The notes under the pieces are model-generated. The model ran no database searches, was not told where the DNA came from, and saw nothing but the letters and a program-made list of their open reading frames with translations. A program made the translations under genes and the position numbers. A stretch of DNA of 64,000 bases from Coxiellaceae bacterium (lineage in GTDB: Bacteria; Pseudomonadota; Gammaproteobacteria; JAJRRL01), in NCBI GenBank assembly GCA_047404195.1, contig JBDOIU010000002.1, forward strand, positions 3,677-67,676, given 5' to 3'. This document shows positions 51,129 to 56,074 of this stretch, piece by piece (position 1 is the first letter of the stretch; each line of letters starts with the position of its first letter).

Positions 51129-51647
51129 TTGACAAAATTATGCTGCTGCCTTCTTGGCTTGTTTGCGCTGCTGATGCAGCCTGTTTTTGCATTGCCAGGT
51201 GATGCTATCCAGGTGTTGGCGAGAGGTAATGCGCAATACTTTCCCCCGGGTTTTACCATTGAACTGAAAGTGGCGATTTGTCCAAAGGGTTTGCATGGAT
51301 TATTTCATTGTATGGAGCCCAGCTTGTTGACATTGTCGGCGGTAGAAGATGCTGCGGATCGTCAGTTTGTACCAGTACATAATCGGTCACAAGAAGAGCC
51401 AGGGGAATACCGGTATCATTTGCAATCAATGAATACTGCAGTTCTACCAGTGCCAAATCAGAACGAATCAGTCATTATGATTGGATACGGAGACCGGCTC
51501 ACAGACCAATACTACACGGATGATGCGCGTTGCCTTAATGCCAATGTGATCACGCTGCATTATTATCTCGTTCAATCTGAGTGTGATGGCCAACGCGTGC
51601 AGTGGAAATACCGTGGGCTTTCCTTGACGAAATATGAGTATGATTAA
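51129..51647 (+). CDS. family B member B1 (divergent): small secreted 4-Cys protein
   Basis: TTG 51129 after AAGGAG. Signal peptide ...LMQPVFA|LP. Family pattern KVAICPKGLHGLFHC ... VIMIGYG ... YTDDARCLNA ... SECDGQRVQWKYRGL. Confidence 0.65.
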   Translation: MTKLCCCLLGLFALLMQPVFALPGDAIQVLARGNAQYFPPGFTIELKVAICPKGLHGLFHCMEPSLLTLSAVEDAADRQFVPVHNRSQEEPGEYRYHLQSMNTAVLPVPNQNESVIMIGYGDRLTDQYYTDDARCLNANVITLHYYLVQSECDGQRVQWKYRGLSLTKYEYD

Positions 51648-52396
51648 TGCTTGGCAGCATACTCAACTTCTGCAATGGACCGTCGCAGGTTTTTAACTGT
51701 GACAGAGCCAGGTATGACCTCAAAGTGACTCAGAGAGCCATCTGCGAGGAAAATGGTCGGTGCGCCAGTGACCGACAACTTGTCCGCCAAGTCTTCATTT
51801 TTTTGTAGTTGCTGTAGAATCTCAGGCCGCTGCATGTTTTTTTGCATGAGCGGCACATTGATTCCGAGTCGCCTAGCAATATCCAGTACGGTACCTGGTG
51901 GTAGTCCTTGCGATGGGGCTAACATGGCTTGGTGAAATAGCCAATATTTGCCTTGGCGCATGGCTGCCATACCCGCTAGGGCAGCGAAGCGAGACTGAGG
52001 TCCAAACATTGGTAGTGCTTTCAGCACCAGCTTCACTTCTGGGTTTTGATGCAAAATGGATTCTAAAACAGGGCGCATGGCTTGACAGTGACCACATTGA
52101 TAATCAAAAAACTCCACCAGGTAGGCTTTGGGTGACTTTGCACCAACGGTAGGGGACATGGTGTCATTGAACAGTGCGTCACGGTAACGTAGTAATGCGG
52201 GTTGCTGTGTCATTGTTTCATTGGCAGCAGTTTGGTCAGTGTCGTTGGCGGGAGTGTTGGAGGGATGCTGTGCTAGGTACTCTGCAATCAGTTGGCGAAT
52301 TTCATTTTTTTGTTCGGCTGTGAAGGTGGCTGCCAGTGCAGGCGTGATGATGAAAGTGCAGGCAGTAGCTGCGATCAGCGCAATGCGTTTAAACAT
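51644..52396 (-). CDS. DsbA-family thiol:disulfide oxidoreductase, Com1/DsbA2-like
   Basis: Signal peptide, N-terminal helical segment (EQKNEIRQLIAEYLAQHP) and thioredoxin-fold active site FFDYQCGHCQ. 250 aa. Its stop overlaps the B1 stop by 4 nt (convergent). Confidence 0.8.
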   Translation of the reverse strand: MFKRIALIAATACTFIITPALAATFTAEQKNEIRQLIAEYLAQHPSNTPANDTDQTAANETMTQQPALLRYRDALFNDTMSPTVGAKSPKAYLVEFFDYQCGHCQAMRPVLESILHQNPEVKLVLKALPMFGPQSRFAALAGMAAMRQGKYWLFHQAMLAPSQGLPPGTVLDIARRLGINVPLMQKNMQRPEILQQLQKNEDLADKLSVTGAPTIFLADGSLSHFEVIPGSVTVKNLRRSIAEVEYAAKH

Positions 52397-52460
52397 GGCA
52401 ATACTCCAGAGTAGGTGTTTTTTCTTAGTTTAGCATGTTCTGTGGAGTTTGTGTGGCTGC

Positions 52461-53486
52461 TTAGCTGGCAGCCAAAATTTGCTGTTTGATTTTATTCATA
52501 GCCTGTTTTTCGAGTTGTCGTATACGCTCAGGTGAGACATCGAATTCTGCCGCCAGTTCATGTAATGTGGCTTTCTTGCCAGAATCAGGCAACCAACGTC
52601 GGCGAAGGATATTTTGACTGCGTTCTGGTAGATCAGCGATGGCAGCATGCAGCGCGCTTTGTTCAGTGTAGGCGGTTTCTTGTGCCTCTAACAACGCTGC
52701 CGGGCTTTCGCCCCCAGCCAGGTATGATTCAGGTGAGTATTGGTAGTCATCACCATCACTGTCAGTTTGGTGGAAGGAGCAATCGTTATTCATACCGCTC
52801 ATGCGGCTTTCCATTTGTCGCACTTCTTCTTCTTTGACATTGAGTATCTCTGAGATACTACGCACTTCATCATTACTGAACCAGCCACGCTTCTTTGAGA
52901 AGCTGCGCAGCTTAAAAAATAGTTTACGTTGCGCCTTCGTTGTTGCGATTTTAACGACACGCCAGTTTTTAAGCACAAATTCATGGATTTCTGCACGAAT
53001 CCAGTGCACTGAGAAAGAGACAAGACGTGCACCATTTTCAGGGTCAAAGCGTTTGACTGCTTTCATGAGCCCTAAGTTGCCTTCTTGGATCAAATCAGCC
53101 TGTGATAAGCCATAGCCGGAGTAACTGCGCGCAATTTTAACGACTAATCGTAAATGTGAGGTCACTAAGCGTCGCGCAGCCGCTAGATCTTGCTGATATT
53201 TCAGGCGCCTAGCGCAATCCAGTTCTTCTTCTGCTGTTAGCATCGGCACACTATTGACCCAATTGATGTATTCTTGCAGGCTGCCGACAGATAAAGCCCG
53301 TTCAGAGCTGATGGGTTGCTGTGTATCTTTAGATACAGAGGTTGTGTTTTTATTTGCAGGCAGCAATGCTTTGCTCTCCTCGCAGAGCGCCCTTTCAGGG
53401 GTGAGATCATCTTGTGTCGATAGCGCTGCTAAAGCCATTGATTTTTCAGCAGAATTATCTGATATGGGCACCTTTTTTTGGGTCAT
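52461..53486 (-). CDS. rpoH: RNA polymerase sigma-32 (heat-shock sigma factor) with N-terminal extension
   Basis: RpoH box TKAQRKLFFKLR. Region 2 DLIQEGNLGLMKAVKRFDP and region 4 LHELAAEFDVSPERIRQLEKQA. ATG 53486 after GAGGCGG is preferred over TTG 53498. Confidence 0.93.
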   Translation of the reverse strand: MTQKKVPISDNSAEKSMALAALSTQDDLTPERALCEESKALLPANKNTTSVSKDTQQPISSERALSVGSLQEYINWVNSVPMLTAEEELDCARRLKYQQDLAAARRLVTSHLRLVVKIARSYSGYGLSQADLIQEGNLGLMKAVKRFDPENGARLVSFSVHWIRAEIHEFVLKNWRVVKIATTKAQRKLFFKLRSFSKKRGWFSNDEVRSISEILNVKEEEVRQMESRMSGMNNDCSFHQTDSDGDDYQYSPESYLAGGESPAALLEAQETAYTEQSALHAAIADLPERSQNILRRRWLPDSGKKATLHELAAEFDVSPERIRQLEKQAMNKIKQQILAAS

Positions 53487-53634
53487 ACGCCGCCTCAAGT
53501 TGACTTAATAAGGAACAGTTAGTGTTTATTATGTTATCATAACACACTTCTTGGCCATTGACTAGAGTGTCGTTACCCAGCTGATACAAAGCAGAACGGT
53601 GATTATTTTTATTGGGATCTCTAGGCGCGCCTGT

Positions 53635-54805: not shown

Positions 54806-54966
54806 CCAGTATGTATTAGGTGCTGCATAAAACTGTGAGTCAACTGCATGGATTGTTTCTTCAGTCCAAACAGTGAGTTGTGTGTTAGTATGCATCTATC
54901 GTATTTACCGGAGTTGGTATTCGTGCTAGTATAACAGCAAATATGTTAATTCATTAGGAGACGACT

Positions 54967-55467
54967 ATGAAAAGATCTGTTCAACTCGGTGCTGCACTTT
55001 TGTTTTTGGCCAGTGGTGCGATGGCCCATACCATACATGTAACAAACTCAACAAAGAATGGTGCATACTCTGTCTTGCAGGGGTCGGATGATATCTTGAC
55101 GGTAAAGTTTTGTCCCAAGGATATATTTAAGTCCTGTCATGAGCGGTTAGTGCTAAAGCCTGTTGCAGAGGAACAGAGTGGTCAGTATATTGAAACGATC
55201 TGGACACGATATGGTTCTTATATTAACCAAGTCAATGAGTATGGCTACGAGACGGTTTCAGGAAATTTAACAGTGCGTGATGATAGCACTGATATCATGG
55301 TGATTGCTGAGTATGGGAAAATGAAGCTTTGGACAGATGACCCTATCTGCTTAAGAGCTAATAAGATTGAGATTGAGCAAGGTTTTTTAAATAAATCAAC
55401 TTGTGATGGTCAGCATGTTAAATGGCATTTTAGGGCTTTAGGCAGCAACAGCGAAAATGGTCAATAA
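54967..55467 (+). CDS. family B member B4
   Basis: RBS AGGAG. Signal peptide ...ASGAMA|HT. Motifs HTIHVTN, VKFCPKDIFKSC, IMVIAEYG, LWTDDPICLRA, STCDGQHVKWHFRAL. Confidence 0.8.
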   Translation: MKRSVQLGAALLFLASGAMAHTIHVTNSTKNGAYSVLQGSDDILTVKFCPKDIFKSCHERLVLKPVAEEQSGQYIETIWTRYGSYINQVNEYGYETVSGNLTVRDDSTDIMVIAEYGKMKLWTDDPICLRANKIEIEQGFLNKSTCDGQHVKWHFRALGSNSENGQ

Positions 55468-55591
55468 ACATTTTTAGGCGCGCGTCCTTTTCTGTTTGAA
55501 TATTGTCGCGGCATTTCATTATCATCATCATATTGGTGGAGTGTCTATTGTTGGCTTAATCATTAACGCGTTAATCCGCTGGAGGGCGATT

Positions 55592-56074
55592 ATGAAAAAA
55601 TCTATTCGAGGTGGTATAGCACTATTGGTGTTAGCTGGTGCAGCAAGTGCCCACACGATTCACATTCAAAATTTATTAGGGCCAAATGGTTTTACATGGT
55701 CGAAGAATGATTATGATGTTTTGACCGTTAAGTTCTGTCCTAAAAATATATTTAAGCAATGTCATGAGCATGTAGTACTTCAGCCCAAAGCAGATAAAAA
55801 AATTGGCACGTTTCTTAACATATCCTCTGGTATCAATATATATGGCTACGAGACAGTTTCGGCAGATTTGAACGTTAACGACAACAGCACAGATATAATG
55901 GTTATTTATAGGGTTGGAAGATATAAGCTCTGGACGAATGACCCGCGCTGCTTAAGAGCGCGTAATTTTGTTTTTGTGCAGAACAATGATATGGGTCAAA
56001 AATCAACCTGTGATGGTCATCGTGTTAAGTGGCATTATAGAGGTCTTCCTAGTGGCAGCACCACAGGATCATAG
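55592..56074 (+). CDS. family B member B5
   Basis: ATG 55592 after GGAGGG. Signal peptide ...AGAASA|HT. Motifs HTIHIQN, VKFCPKNIFKQC, IMVIYRVG, LWTNDPRCLRA, STCDGHRVKWHYRGL. Confidence 0.8.
   Translation: MKKSIRGGIALLVLAGAASAHTIHIQNLLGPNGFTWSKNDYDVLTVKFCPKNIFKQCHEHVVLQPKADKKIGTFLNISSGINIYGYETVSADLNVNDNSTDIMVIYRVGRYKLWTNDPRCLRARNFVFVQNNDMGQKSTCDGHRVKWHYRGLPSGSTTGS

What the first reader, a model, noticed from the sequence alone, without database searches (positions are those of the whole stretch)
51129..56074. Second lineage-specific family: five small secreted 4-Cys proteins flanking a DsbA-like gene and rpoH
B1 (51129..51647) and B2-B5 (53691..56074) encode ~150-170-aa proteins with Sec signal peptides. 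In B2-B5 the mature N-terminus begins H(T/S)I.(V/I).N; B1 lacks this start. Strongly conserved blocks are VKFC(P/S)K(N/D)IFK.C, (I/L)(M/I/L)VI, (L/V)W(T/S)(D/N)(D/E)..C.(R/K)A and STC(D/N)G...(K/H/P)WH(F/Y)R. Four invariant cysteines imply two disulfides. B2-B5 are tandem, each with its own RBS and plausible promoter, and a terminator follows B5. B1 is more divergent and sits on the other side of the DsbA-like/rpoH pair. I cannot assign the family to a known domain. It is unrelated in sequence to family A.
Basis: partly seen in the sequence, partly recalled or inferred. Interest (0 to 1): 0.65.

Follow-up and report, generated by a model that had tools for sequence, protein, structure and literature searches.

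The report
Orphan secreted disulfide beta-sandwich protein family
Five neighbouring genes in an uncultured marine bacterium encode a real, previously undescribed family of small exported proteins with no known relatives; what they do is untested, and metal binding is my leading guess.

Summary
B1 (51129..51647) and B2-B5 (53691..56074) are five paralogous + strand genes for 153-172-aa proteins. Each has a canonical Sec/SPase-I signal peptide and four invariant cysteines.

No match was found in Pfam, NCBIfam, PHROGs, PDB sequences, or phage and plasmid records. An exhaustive HMM scan of 1.84 billion proteins found only the same lineage: this genome (a sixth paralog lies on another contig) and two Tara metagenomes.

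Orthologs are under purifying selection (dN/dS 0.09-0.30). A metatranscriptome holds a B2 fragment.

AlphaFold2 gives confident all-beta models (pLDDT 86-87) with no Foldseek neighbour in PDB or BFVD (TM <= 0.38).

The array changes between strains, and a long beta-hairpin is hypervariable.

The gene between B1 and B2 belongs to the ScsC/Com1 subgroup of DsbA. rpoH adjacency looks incidental.

My mechanism is inferred, not shown. Cleavage at AxA|H would expose an invariant N-terminal His in B2-B5. With the only other invariant His (WH[F/Y]R), this suggests a histidine-brace-like metal site.

The family is new, its function is untested, and interest is moderate.

The parts
51129..51647 (+). B1: divergent paralog of 172 aa. 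Signal peptide MTKLCCCLLGLFALLMQPVFA, mature start LPGD, WKYR in place of WHFR. It lies 214 nt after cyoD.
   Evidence: (E = 5e-55). The scan found no + strand promoter-like site in the cyoD-B1 spacer, so read-through from cyoABCD is possible; this is inference.
51644..52396 (-). DsbA-fold thiol-disulfide oxidoreductase of the ScsC/Com1 type. It has a CGHC active site and an N-terminal ScsC_N-like helix. It converges on B1 with a 4-nt overlap. It is a candidate folding catalyst for the family, but this is context, not proven partnership.
   Evidence: Pfam DSBA, 2.4e-19. Best PDB relatives are 3gyk, 4xvw, 6nen and 4gxz, all ScsC or '27 kDa outer membrane protein'.
52461..53498 (-). rpoH (sigma-32), transcribed divergently from B2. 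It is context only.
   Evidence: TIGR02392, 371 bits against a cut-off of 323. No sigma-32-type promoter lies near the B genes.
53635..53663 (+). Sigma-70-like promoter TTGACA-17-TACGAT, 28 nt upstream of the B2 start.
   Evidence: 10 of 12 matches.
53691..54200 (+). B2: 169 aa, mature start HSIQVV. It has a fifth Cys in a C-terminal tail. A transcript fragment was seen.
   Evidence: A 209-nt contig of RNA run X5 lies at 53785..53993 with 1 mismatch. dN/dS against the L004 ortholog is 0.30.
54280..54309 (+). Promoter-like site TTGACT-18-TAACAT before B3, conserved in the Tara ortholog locus.
54344..54805 (+). B3: 153 aa, mature start HTIVVN, the shortest variable hairpin in the family.
   Evidence: dN/dS is 0.09 against L004. 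AF2 model: pLDDT 86.2.
54967..55467 (+). B4: 166 aa, mature start HTIHVT, the longest variable hairpin in the family.
   Evidence: dN/dS is 0.10-0.16. AF2 model: pLDDT 87.2, pTM 0.77.
55592..56074 (+). B5: 160 aa, mature start HTIHIQ, pI 9.3.
   Evidence: (P0003 is identical to it).
56228..56261 (+). Intrinsic terminator closing the B2-B5 array: a 10-bp GC-rich stem followed by T7.
   Evidence: dG -17.6, z -3.1. It is conserved in L002.

Best explanation
B1-B5, together with a sixth paralog elsewhere in the genome, are a lineage-restricted orphan family of Sec-exported all-beta proteins of about 15-17 kDa.

Shown:
- The genes are real and under purifying selection.
- They carry canonical SPase-I signal peptides and four invariant cysteines.
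- AlphaFold2 predicts a confident beta-rich fold with no detectable relative.
- The family grew by tandem duplication, and array content differs between strains.
- The paralogs keep a conserved core and vary most in one long beta-hairpin.

Inferred:
- After export the two Cys pairs (C29/C37 and C108/C126 in mature B4 numbering) are oxidised in the periplasm, plausibly by the adjacent ScsC/DsbA-like enzyme.
- In the B2-B5 subgroup, cleavage at A-x-A|H leaves an invariant histidine as residue 1.
- Its free amino group and imidazole, together with the only other invariant histidine (W-H-[F/Y]-R, His134), form a histidine-brace-like site. That site would bind a transition-metal ion (Cu or Ni).
- On this reading the proteins act as periplasmic or secreted metal-binding proteins (capture, chaperoning or buffering). 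B1 and B6 lack both histidines at these positions, or lack His at position 1, and would have diverged in function.
For: Family reality and export.

Purifying selection: ortholog dN/dS is 0.09-0.30 at dS 0.55-0.92.

Transcription: the only piece of window 44001..64000 present at 95% or better in metatranscriptome X5 lies inside B2.

Fold: two independent AF2 models, pLDDT 87.2 and 86.2, with the same order of about 10 strands.

N-terminal His:
- A-x-A|H(T/S)I is invariant in B2, B3, B4, B5 and in orthologs P0001, P0002, P0004 and P0007.
- The paralogs are only 36-52% identical and dS between them is large or saturated (1.3-2.4, or not computable).
- Both His positions use both CAC and CAT codons, so they are held at the amino-acid level.
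- His1 and His134 are lost together in B1/P0005 and P0010. P0012/P0008 lack His134 and would carry His at mature position 3.

Published rationale: a histidine directly after a signal peptide is a demonstrated predictor of secreted metalloproteins, including Ig-like beta-sandwiches such as DUF6702 and Ang-1 (PMC12537917).

Context: the heme-copper oxidase genes cyoABCD lie immediately upstream of B1. The intervening oxidoreductase is closest to ScsC 'suppressor of copper sensitivity' proteins.
Against: - No metal binding was measured.
- The cleavage site was assigned by rule, not by SignalP or N-terminal sequencing. A second small-x-small site two residues upstream exists in B2-B5; it would place the His at position 3.
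- The His1/His134 co-variation may reflect a single evolutionary event separating one clade from the rest.
- One B4-like copy in L002 has Tyr in place of His134.
- There is no sequence or fold similarity to CopC, YcnI, LPMO, DUF6702 or Ang-1.
- Four to five paralogs with a hypervariable hairpin fit diversified ligand recognition at least as well as metal handling.
- The cyo/ScsC neighbourhood is seen in only one genome.
Confidence: 0.35

Rival explanations
1. The proteins are secreted or surface-exposed binding proteins with no metal site. A conserved disulfide-stapled beta-sandwich scaffold presents a hypervariable beta-hairpin, which recognises different external ligands such as host or prey surfaces, particles or polysaccharides. 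The tandem array diversifies by gene birth and death.
For: - The most variable, indel-rich segment is mature residues 44-86, the long hairpin of the model, set between strongly conserved blocks.
- Array content differs between strains: L002 has two B4-like copies and no B5 ortholog in the last slot.
- The genome carries other expanded families of secreted Cys proteins next to an MSHA-type pilus cluster, and many large ORFans.
- The run holding the window contig looks like amplified single-cell or particle material.
- The B region has lower GC (0.41) than its neighbours (0.45-0.46).
Against: - It does not explain the strict conservation of His at the first mature residue, nor that of His134.
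- Ortholog dN/dS of 0.09-0.16 for B3 and B4 shows no sign of arms-race evolution.
- No host is known.
- Secretion beyond the periplasm is not shown.
Confidence: 0.3
2. The proteins are very divergent single-domain relatives of ASH/HYDIN/VesB-like (PapD-like clan) Ig domains, serving as a generic periplasmic structural or protein-protein interaction module.
For: - The family profile picked up a 2737-aa protein made of Cep192_D4/HYDIN_VesB/ASH repeats (11 weak stretches, summed E = 1.9e-19).
- hhalign of the family against those repeats gives 83.7% probability over 33 columns, around VKFCPK versus VRFCPQ.
- Foldseek's weak top hits are Ig-like domains.
Against: - The match covers only mature residues 4-38 of about 146 and is driven by one short motif.
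- Pfam ASH and HYDIN models do not hit any B protein even at E <= 1.
- TM-scores to all PDB Ig-like domains are <= 0.38.
- The domain is about 50% longer than an ASH repeat.
Confidence: 0.15
3. The proteins are periplasmic defensive inhibitors, for example of lysozymes or proteases from grazers or hosts, or some other envelope-stress protein. On this reading their position next to rpoH and a disulfide isomerase would reflect function.
For: - They are small, periplasmic, disulfide-bonded beta proteins, as known inhibitors are (established knowledge of Ivy/PliC/ecotin-type proteins, not tested here).
- They are adjacent to rpoH and the ScsC-like gene.
Against: - No fold match to any inhibitor structure in PDB.
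- No sigma-32-type promoter upstream of any B gene.
- rpoH is transcribed divergently.
- No such family hit in Pfam or NCBIfam.
Confidence: 0.08
4. The ORFs are not functional genes but decaying duplicates or chance ORFs.
For: - They have no annotation anywhere.
- One L002 copy carries a low-complexity insertion and a His-to-Tyr change.
Against: - dN/dS is 0.09-0.30 across four ortholog pairs at dS 0.55-0.92.
- All five are intact, with signal peptides and RBS.
- AF2 models are confident.
- An RNA contig lies in B2.
Confidence: 0.02

Closest known systems
Secreted N-terminal-histidine ('histidine brace') metalloproteins: CopC, YcnI, LPMO AA10, DUF6702, Ang-1/Ang-2 (PMC12537917, PMC10952591, PMC8424229)
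   Same: - A Sec signal peptide followed directly by a conserved His that would become residue 1.
- A small beta-sandwich domain.
- A second conserved His far along the sequence, near the C-terminus as in CopC (the CopC detail is from my own knowledge).
- Extracytoplasmic location.
- A copper-related neighbourhood (cyoABCD and a ScsC-like gene).
   Different: - No sequence hit to CopC, YcnI, LPMO_10, DUF6702 or DUF4198 models at E <= 1.
- No Foldseek hit to any of their structures.
- Four conserved cysteines.
- Some family members (B1, P0010) lack both histidines.
- Metal binding is untested.
ASH / HYDIN-VesB-CFA65-like Ig domains (PF15780, PF22544; PapD-like clan)
   Same: A local motif of beta-strand, turn and V(K/R)FCP(K/Q)xxxxKxC. 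hhalign probability is 83.7% over 33 columns.
   Different: - Only about a quarter of the domain aligns.
- Pfam models do not match.
- The B domain is longer (134-151 aa against about 95).
- B proteins are stand-alone secreted proteins, not repeats in giant proteins.
ScsC / Com1 / DsbA2-type oligomeric DsbA-like oxidoreductases (this concerns the neighbouring gene, not the family itself)
   Same: The gene at 51644..52396 has a DSBA fold and a CGHC motif. Its best solved relatives are ScsC proteins and the '27 kDa outer membrane protein' (E = 4e-28 to 2e-17). Such enzymes oxidise or isomerise disulfides of exported proteins, which is established knowledge.
   Different: - No ScsB, ScsD or ScsA partner genes are seen in the window.
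- A functional link to the B proteins rests on adjacency in one genome only.
Chaperone-usher fimbrial subunits
   Same: Tandem paralogous genes for proteins of about 150-170 aa, each with a signal peptide, an Ig-like beta fold, a disulfide, and an N-terminal strand of alternating hydrophobic residues (HTIHVTN).
   Different: - No usher or PapD-type chaperone gene in the neighbourhood.
- No Fimbrial Pfam hit.
- No Foldseek hit to chaperone-usher pilins.

Membership tests
Sec/SPase-I exported proteins | An N-terminal signal peptide with a positively charged n-region, a hydrophobic h-region, small residues at -3/-1, and no lipobox or twin-arginine motif. | tested here: met
   All six paralogs have K/R in the first 5 residues, a 9-residue Kyte-Doolittle maximum of 2.0-2.9, and (A/V/I)-x-A before the predicted cut. 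This is a rule-based reading; SignalP was not available. Only B2 has an L-A-A-C string, and it is absent from its ortholog P0007.
Histidine-brace / N-terminal-His metalloproteins | A histidine as the first residue of the mature protein, conserved across the family. | tested here: met
   A-x-A|H is invariant in B2-B5 and in four orthologs. It is not met in B1, P0010, or P0012/P0008. The cleavage site itself is predicted, not measured.
Histidine-brace / N-terminal-His metalloproteins | A second ligand (His) held within coordination distance of His1 in the fold. | not testable with these tools
   His134 (WH[F/Y]R) is the only other His invariant in B2-B5. The structure tool returns no coordinates, so the distance is unknown.
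Histidine-brace / N-terminal-His metalloproteins | Measured binding of Cu, Ni or another transition metal. | not testable with these tools
   This needs recombinant protein and thermal shift, ITC or EPR.
CopC (PF04234), YcnI (PF07987), LPMO_10 (PF03067), DUF6702, DUF4198 | A sequence match to the family model, or a fold match to a solved member. | tested here: not met
   Pfam gave no hits at E <= 1. A PDB profile search found nothing relevant. Foldseek against PDB gave no hit with E <= 0.001 for two models.
ASH / HYDIN-VesB-like Ig domain (PapD-like clan) | A match to the Pfam model above the gathering score, or a full-domain profile-profile match. | tested here: inconclusive
   There is no Pfam hit. 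hhalign against ASH-type repeats gives 83.7% probability, but over only 33 columns.
Chaperone-usher pilins | Neighbouring usher (PF00577) and PapD-like chaperone genes, and a Fimbrial domain. | tested here: not met
   Neighbours are cyoABCD, an ScsC-like gene, rpoH, a PAS-LuxR regulator and AIM24. There is no Fimbrial domain hit and no structural hit to chaperone-usher pilins.
DsbA-dependent disulfide-bonded periplasmic proteins | Paired cysteines that are oxidised in the mature protein. | not testable with these tools
   Four Cys are invariant in B1-B5. P0012 and P0008 also keep all four plus one extra pair, while P0010 lacks the second one (C37). Pairing and oxidation state need mass spectrometry or a structure.

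The most novel reading that the evidence does not exclude
B2-B5 define a new fold family of histidine-brace-type copper (or nickel) proteins. His1 together with His134 would sit on a disulfide-stapled beta-sandwich with no structural relative. The family would be amplified and diversified in an uncultured marine gammaproteobacterium. It might be redox-active on varied substrates, in the way LPMO paralogs are, or it might supply or buffer copper for the adjacent bo3 oxidase.
Probability: 0.25. Interest if true: 0.7.

Novelty: new variant of a known kind. Interest (0 to 1): 0.45.

Why it matters
If the family is only what has been shown, it is one more lineage-specific set of exported proteins, though a clean one:
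- six or more paralogs;
- purifying selection;
- a confident predicted fold with no neighbour in PDB;
- relatives absent from 185,579 species genomes and essentially absent from 1.84 billion protein representatives.

This makes it a good target for structural genomics. It is also a marker of an undescribed marine gammaproteobacterial lineage whose RpoH is at most 59% identical to that of any GTDB species.

If the N-terminal-histidine reading is right, it adds a new fold to the small set of histidine-brace metalloproteins. It would also link that fold to copper handling next to a heme-copper oxidase and an ScsC-type isomerase. That link is directly testable with a few recombinant proteins.

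Tried and rejected
Searches and ideas that led nowhere, or were rejected:

1. Known domains: Pfam, NCBIfam and PHROGs gave nothing for any paralog. The few hits with E > 0.003 (DarA, StxB, DUF4778, NUP210 Ig) are far below their cut-offs and were dismissed.
2. A PDB sequence profile search gave only plasmepsin noise at E >= 0.12.
3. Foldseek, on two models against PDB and on the B4 model against BFVD, gave no hit with E <= 0.001 and a best TM of 0.31-0.38.
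4. Pattern-plus-tblastn scans of GTDB species genomes and of JGI metagenomes found no relatives.
5. tblastn against phage and plasmid collections found no match.
6. The large repeat proteins P0009 and P0011 from the exhaustive search were rejected as spurious. The matched part of P0009 lies outside its ASH domain.
7. Placing the organism through RpoH neighbourhoods failed. The best identity was 59%, hits were a mix of gamma- and betaproteobacteria, and no B-family gene occurs in any of the 80 loci.
8. RpoH-dependent or sigma-54 promoters before the B genes: none found.
9. Shared upstream motifs occur at chance frequency in the window, so they are treated as duplication remnants. These are TAGGCGCGC before B2 and B5, and TTAAC-N2-GTTAA before B3 and B5.
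10. Lipoprotein, Tat-substrate and chaperone-usher pilin readings were rejected (see the membership tests).
12. A paper search for the sample accessions found nothing.

Full report
**Observation**

- B1, 51129..51647
- B2, 53691..54200
- B3, 54344..54805
- B4, 54967..55467
- B5, 55592..56074

An independent gene caller on the Logan copy of the same contig calls the same five genes, of 172, 169, 153, 166 and 160 aa.

They align over their whole length with four invariant cysteines and the quoted blocks. Those blocks are VKFCPKNIFKxC, DIxVI, WTDDPxCLRA and STCDGxxxKWH[F/Y]R. A family HMM scores the five at E = 5e-55 to 2e-74. It finds nothing else among all ORFs of at least 50 aa in the window, so 'family A' is unrelated by sequence.

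Each protein starts with a K/R-containing n-region, a hydrophobic core and a small-x-small motif. This motif is A-x-A in B2-B5 and V-x-A in B1. The predicted mature start is H(T/S)I in B2-B5 and LPGD in B1.

A strong hairpin followed by T7 lies at 56228..56251 (dG -17.6 kcal/mol, z -3.1). It closes the array and is conserved in a related strain.

B1, B2, B4 and B5 have GGAG-type ribosome-binding sites (RBS); B3's is weak. Promoter-like sites behave as follows:
- Good before B2: TTGACA-17-TACGAT at 53635..53663.
- Conserved between strains before B3.
- Marginal before B4 and B5.

**Extent and distribution of the family**

A word-indexed search of 5.8 billion proteins with B4 returned only two proteins, 88% and 75% identical, both from one Tara metagenome.

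An exhaustive HMMER scan of 1.84 billion cluster representatives with the family profile returned nine proteins. They were:
- B5 itself;
- orthologs of B1, B2 and B3;
- two distant small members, P0008 and P0010;
- three giant repeat proteins that I regard as spurious or very remote.

Two more profile searches added only P0012. This is a 158-aa member with six cysteines. It is encoded on another contig of the same sample as the window, next to mraZ-ftsL-ftsI, so it is a sixth paralog in the same genome. P0008 is its Tara ortholog. P0010 sits in tandem with a further weak member on two Tara contigs.

Relatives were not found elsewhere:
- Scans of one genome for each of 185,579 GTDB species and of JGI metagenomes found none.
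- Phage and plasmid collections have none.
- None of 80 RpoH neighbourhoods from other proteobacteria contains a member.

The organism's RpoH is at most 59% identical to any GTDB species representative. Near-identical DNA is seen only at low coverage in several marine, seawater and plankton metagenomes. The run holding the window contig has very uneven depth and Nextera ends, which suggests amplified single-cell or particle material. The family is therefore confined, as far as public data show, to one narrow uncultured marine gammaproteobacterial lineage.

**Are they functional genes?**

Ortholog pairs between the window and the Tara contigs give these dN/dS values, at dS 0.55-0.92:

| Gene | dN/dS |
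|---|---|
| B3 | 0.09 |
| B4 | 0.10-0.16 |
| B2 | 0.30 |
| B6 | 0.12 |

This is clear purifying selection. Between paralogs, dS is large or saturated.

In one marine metatranscriptome (X5), the only piece of window 44001..64000 present at 95% identity or better is a 209-nt contig inside B2, with 1 mismatch. Across the other 40 kb laid (window 4001..44000), only three short pieces appear, at 25.4, 25.9 and 29.5 kb. That is modest evidence of transcription: it rests on contig-level data, and DNA carry-over is possible.

Array content changes between strains. L004 keeps the B2-B3-B4 order. L002 has two B4-like copies followed directly by the terminator region that follows B5 in the window.

**Structure**

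AlphaFold2 with only 7 and 11 family sequences gives confident models of mature B4 (pLDDT 87.2, pTM 0.77) and mature B3 (pLDDT 86.2, pTM 0.76). Both show the same order of about ten strands and two short helices.

Foldseek finds no hit with E <= 0.001 in PDB for either model, or in BFVD for the B4 model. The best TM-scores are 0.31-0.38, to generic Ig-like, pilin or pilotin domains.

Mapping conservation onto the B4 model:
- Conserved blocks lie on strands 1-3 and 6-10.
- The indel-rich, least conserved part (mature residues 44-86) is the long beta4-beta5 hairpin.
- C29 and C37 flank the beta2-beta3 loop.
- C108 sits in the short helix.
- C126 sits in the STCDG turn.

The pairing C29-C37 and C108-C126 is my inference; coordinates are not exposed by the tool.

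**Context**

The region reads, in order:
- ftsY-ftsE-ftsX
- ORFans
- cyoABCD (47094..50914)
- B1
- a convergent DSBA-fold gene
- rpoH on the minus strand
- B2-B5
- about 1 kb of non-coding DNA
- a PAS-LuxR regulator

The DSBA-fold protein is closest to ScsC ('suppressor of copper sensitivity') proteins and to the '27 kDa outer membrane protein'. E-values run from 4e-28 to 2e-17. A disulfide oxidase or isomerase next to genes for 4-Cys exported proteins is suggestive, but it is seen in only one genome.

No sigma-32 or sigma-54 promoter motif precedes any B gene, so the rpoH adjacency looks incidental. The scan found no + strand promoter-like site in the 214-nt cyoD-B1 spacer. B1 may therefore be read through from the oxidase operon; this is inference.

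**Mechanism**

The feature that most needs explaining is the invariance of A-x-A|H(T/S)I. It holds in B2-B5 and in all their orthologs, although the paralogs are only 36-52% identical. The only other invariant histidine lies in W-H-[F/Y]-R near the C-terminus. Both positions use both His codons.

The two histidines behave as follows across the family:
- B1/P0005 and P0010 lack both.
- P0012/P0008 lack the second histidine. By the same cleavage rule they would carry His at mature position 3.

A histidine exposed as residue 1 by signal-peptide cleavage chelates metal ions through its amino group and imidazole. It is the basis of the histidine brace of LPMOs, CopC and YcnI. It has also been used successfully as a sequence-only predictor of new secreted metalloproteins, several of them Ig-like beta-sandwiches (PMC12537917; PMC10952591 and PMC8424229, listed).

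The copper-linked neighbours are a heme-copper oxidase and an ScsC-type protein. Together with them, I take metal (Cu or Ni) binding by B2-B5 as the single most likely mechanism, at roughly one chance in three.

Points against this reading:
- No similarity of sequence or fold to any known His-brace family.
- An alternative cleavage site two residues upstream.
- The His co-variation may be a single evolutionary event.
- One B4-like copy has Tyr in place of His134.
- A hypervariable hairpin and strain-variable copy number fit diversified ligand recognition equally well.

**Rivals**

- A metal-free secreted binding protein with a variable hairpin (about 0.3).
- A very divergent ASH/PapD-like Ig module (about 0.15). 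It is supported only by a 33-column hhalign match at 83.7% probability and by weak repeat hits.
- A periplasmic inhibitor or stress protein (about 0.08).
- Non-functional ORFs (about 0.02), contradicted by selection, models and RNA.

**Comparison with known families, and novelty**

The family fails every membership test that could be run against named families: CopC, YcnI, LPMO, DUF6702, ASH and chaperone-usher pilins. It passes the generic test for Sec/SPase-I export, and in B2-B5 it passes the 'His at +1' criterion.

It is a new protein family and, by Foldseek against PDB, possibly a new fold. It sits within the familiar broad kind of small exported disulfide-bonded beta-sandwich proteins. 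I rate it 'new variant of a known kind' rather than categorically new, because no new mechanism has been demonstrated. Interest is moderate, at 0.45.

**Limits**

- No SignalP.
- No model coordinates.
- No AFDB search.
- Expression evidence comes from assembled contigs only.
- The organism's identity and lifestyle are unknown.

Noticed in passing
window 56260..56309 and 56410..56459 (the 1-kb gap between the B5 terminator and the PAS-LuxR gene): Two non-coding blocks are 86% identical to the Tara locus L002. That is higher than the 78% nucleotide identity of B4 against its L002 homolog. The overlapping 68-aa ORF (56340..56546) is not frame-conserved. Folding z-scores are only -1.0 and -1.2, and there is no Rfam hit. 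This may be an sRNA or a regulatory region.
   Followed up: partly
window ~56676..56698; L002 ~2100-2250: The palindrome AATAGGTAT-TTG-ATACCTATT is followed by CTCTGCACATCTGTTAGAGGGGTG. L002 carries an extra inserted copy of this roughly 70-nt unit. It looks like a small repeated element or an operator.
   Followed up: no
window 24201..34063 (+), next to 14252..24158 (-): 'Family A' is about ten tandem genes for 195-246-aa proteins with signal peptides and conserved cysteines, and it has no Pfam hit. The genes lie directly beside an MSHA-type pilus/secretin cluster (Secretin, MshE-type ATPase, T2SSF, TPR). RNA run X5 also holds fragments at 25377..25532 and 25926..26065.
   Followed up: partly
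window 52461..53498 (-): The RpoH ORF carries an N-terminal extension of about 65-70 aa relative to the TIGR02392 model; the match starts at residue 72. rpoH is also inverted and separated from ftsYEX by about 10 kb of lineage-specific genes, unlike the usual gammaproteobacterial ftsYEX-rpoH arrangement.
   Followed up: no
window 22..2886, 3114..7076, 11356..14208, 43151..46023, 60127..62760: Several large ORFs of 380-1320 aa have no Pfam domain. The genome appears unusually rich in orphan proteins.
   Followed up: no
L085 6838..9474 (-) and 10630..11640 (+), flanking the sixth paralog P0012: ORFans of 878 aa and 336 aa have paired long hydrophobic segments and no Pfam hit. A 308-aa gene also lies downstream of the ortholog P0008 in L086; whether it is homologous to the 336-aa ORF was not tested.
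   Followed up: no
L002 1..414: The upstream B4-like copy in this Tara strain has a low-complexity insertion (RQRIRRRRRRH) and Tyr in place of the conserved His134. It may be a decaying duplicate or an assembly artefact.
   Followed up: partly
window 54100..54200 (B2 C-terminal tail): B2 has a fifth cysteine in an extra C-terminal tail (FRALCPMSEV...). It is conserved in the L004 ortholog, so it could be an unpaired Cys or an extra ligand.
   Followed up: no
window 57341..64000 versus 44001..57340: Depth in the source run jumps from about 100x to 440-620x across a contig break near 57920-57970, and Nextera adapter ends are present. This fits amplification bias in a single-cell-type library. 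One contig variant has a 1-nt deletion at 57968.
   Followed up: no
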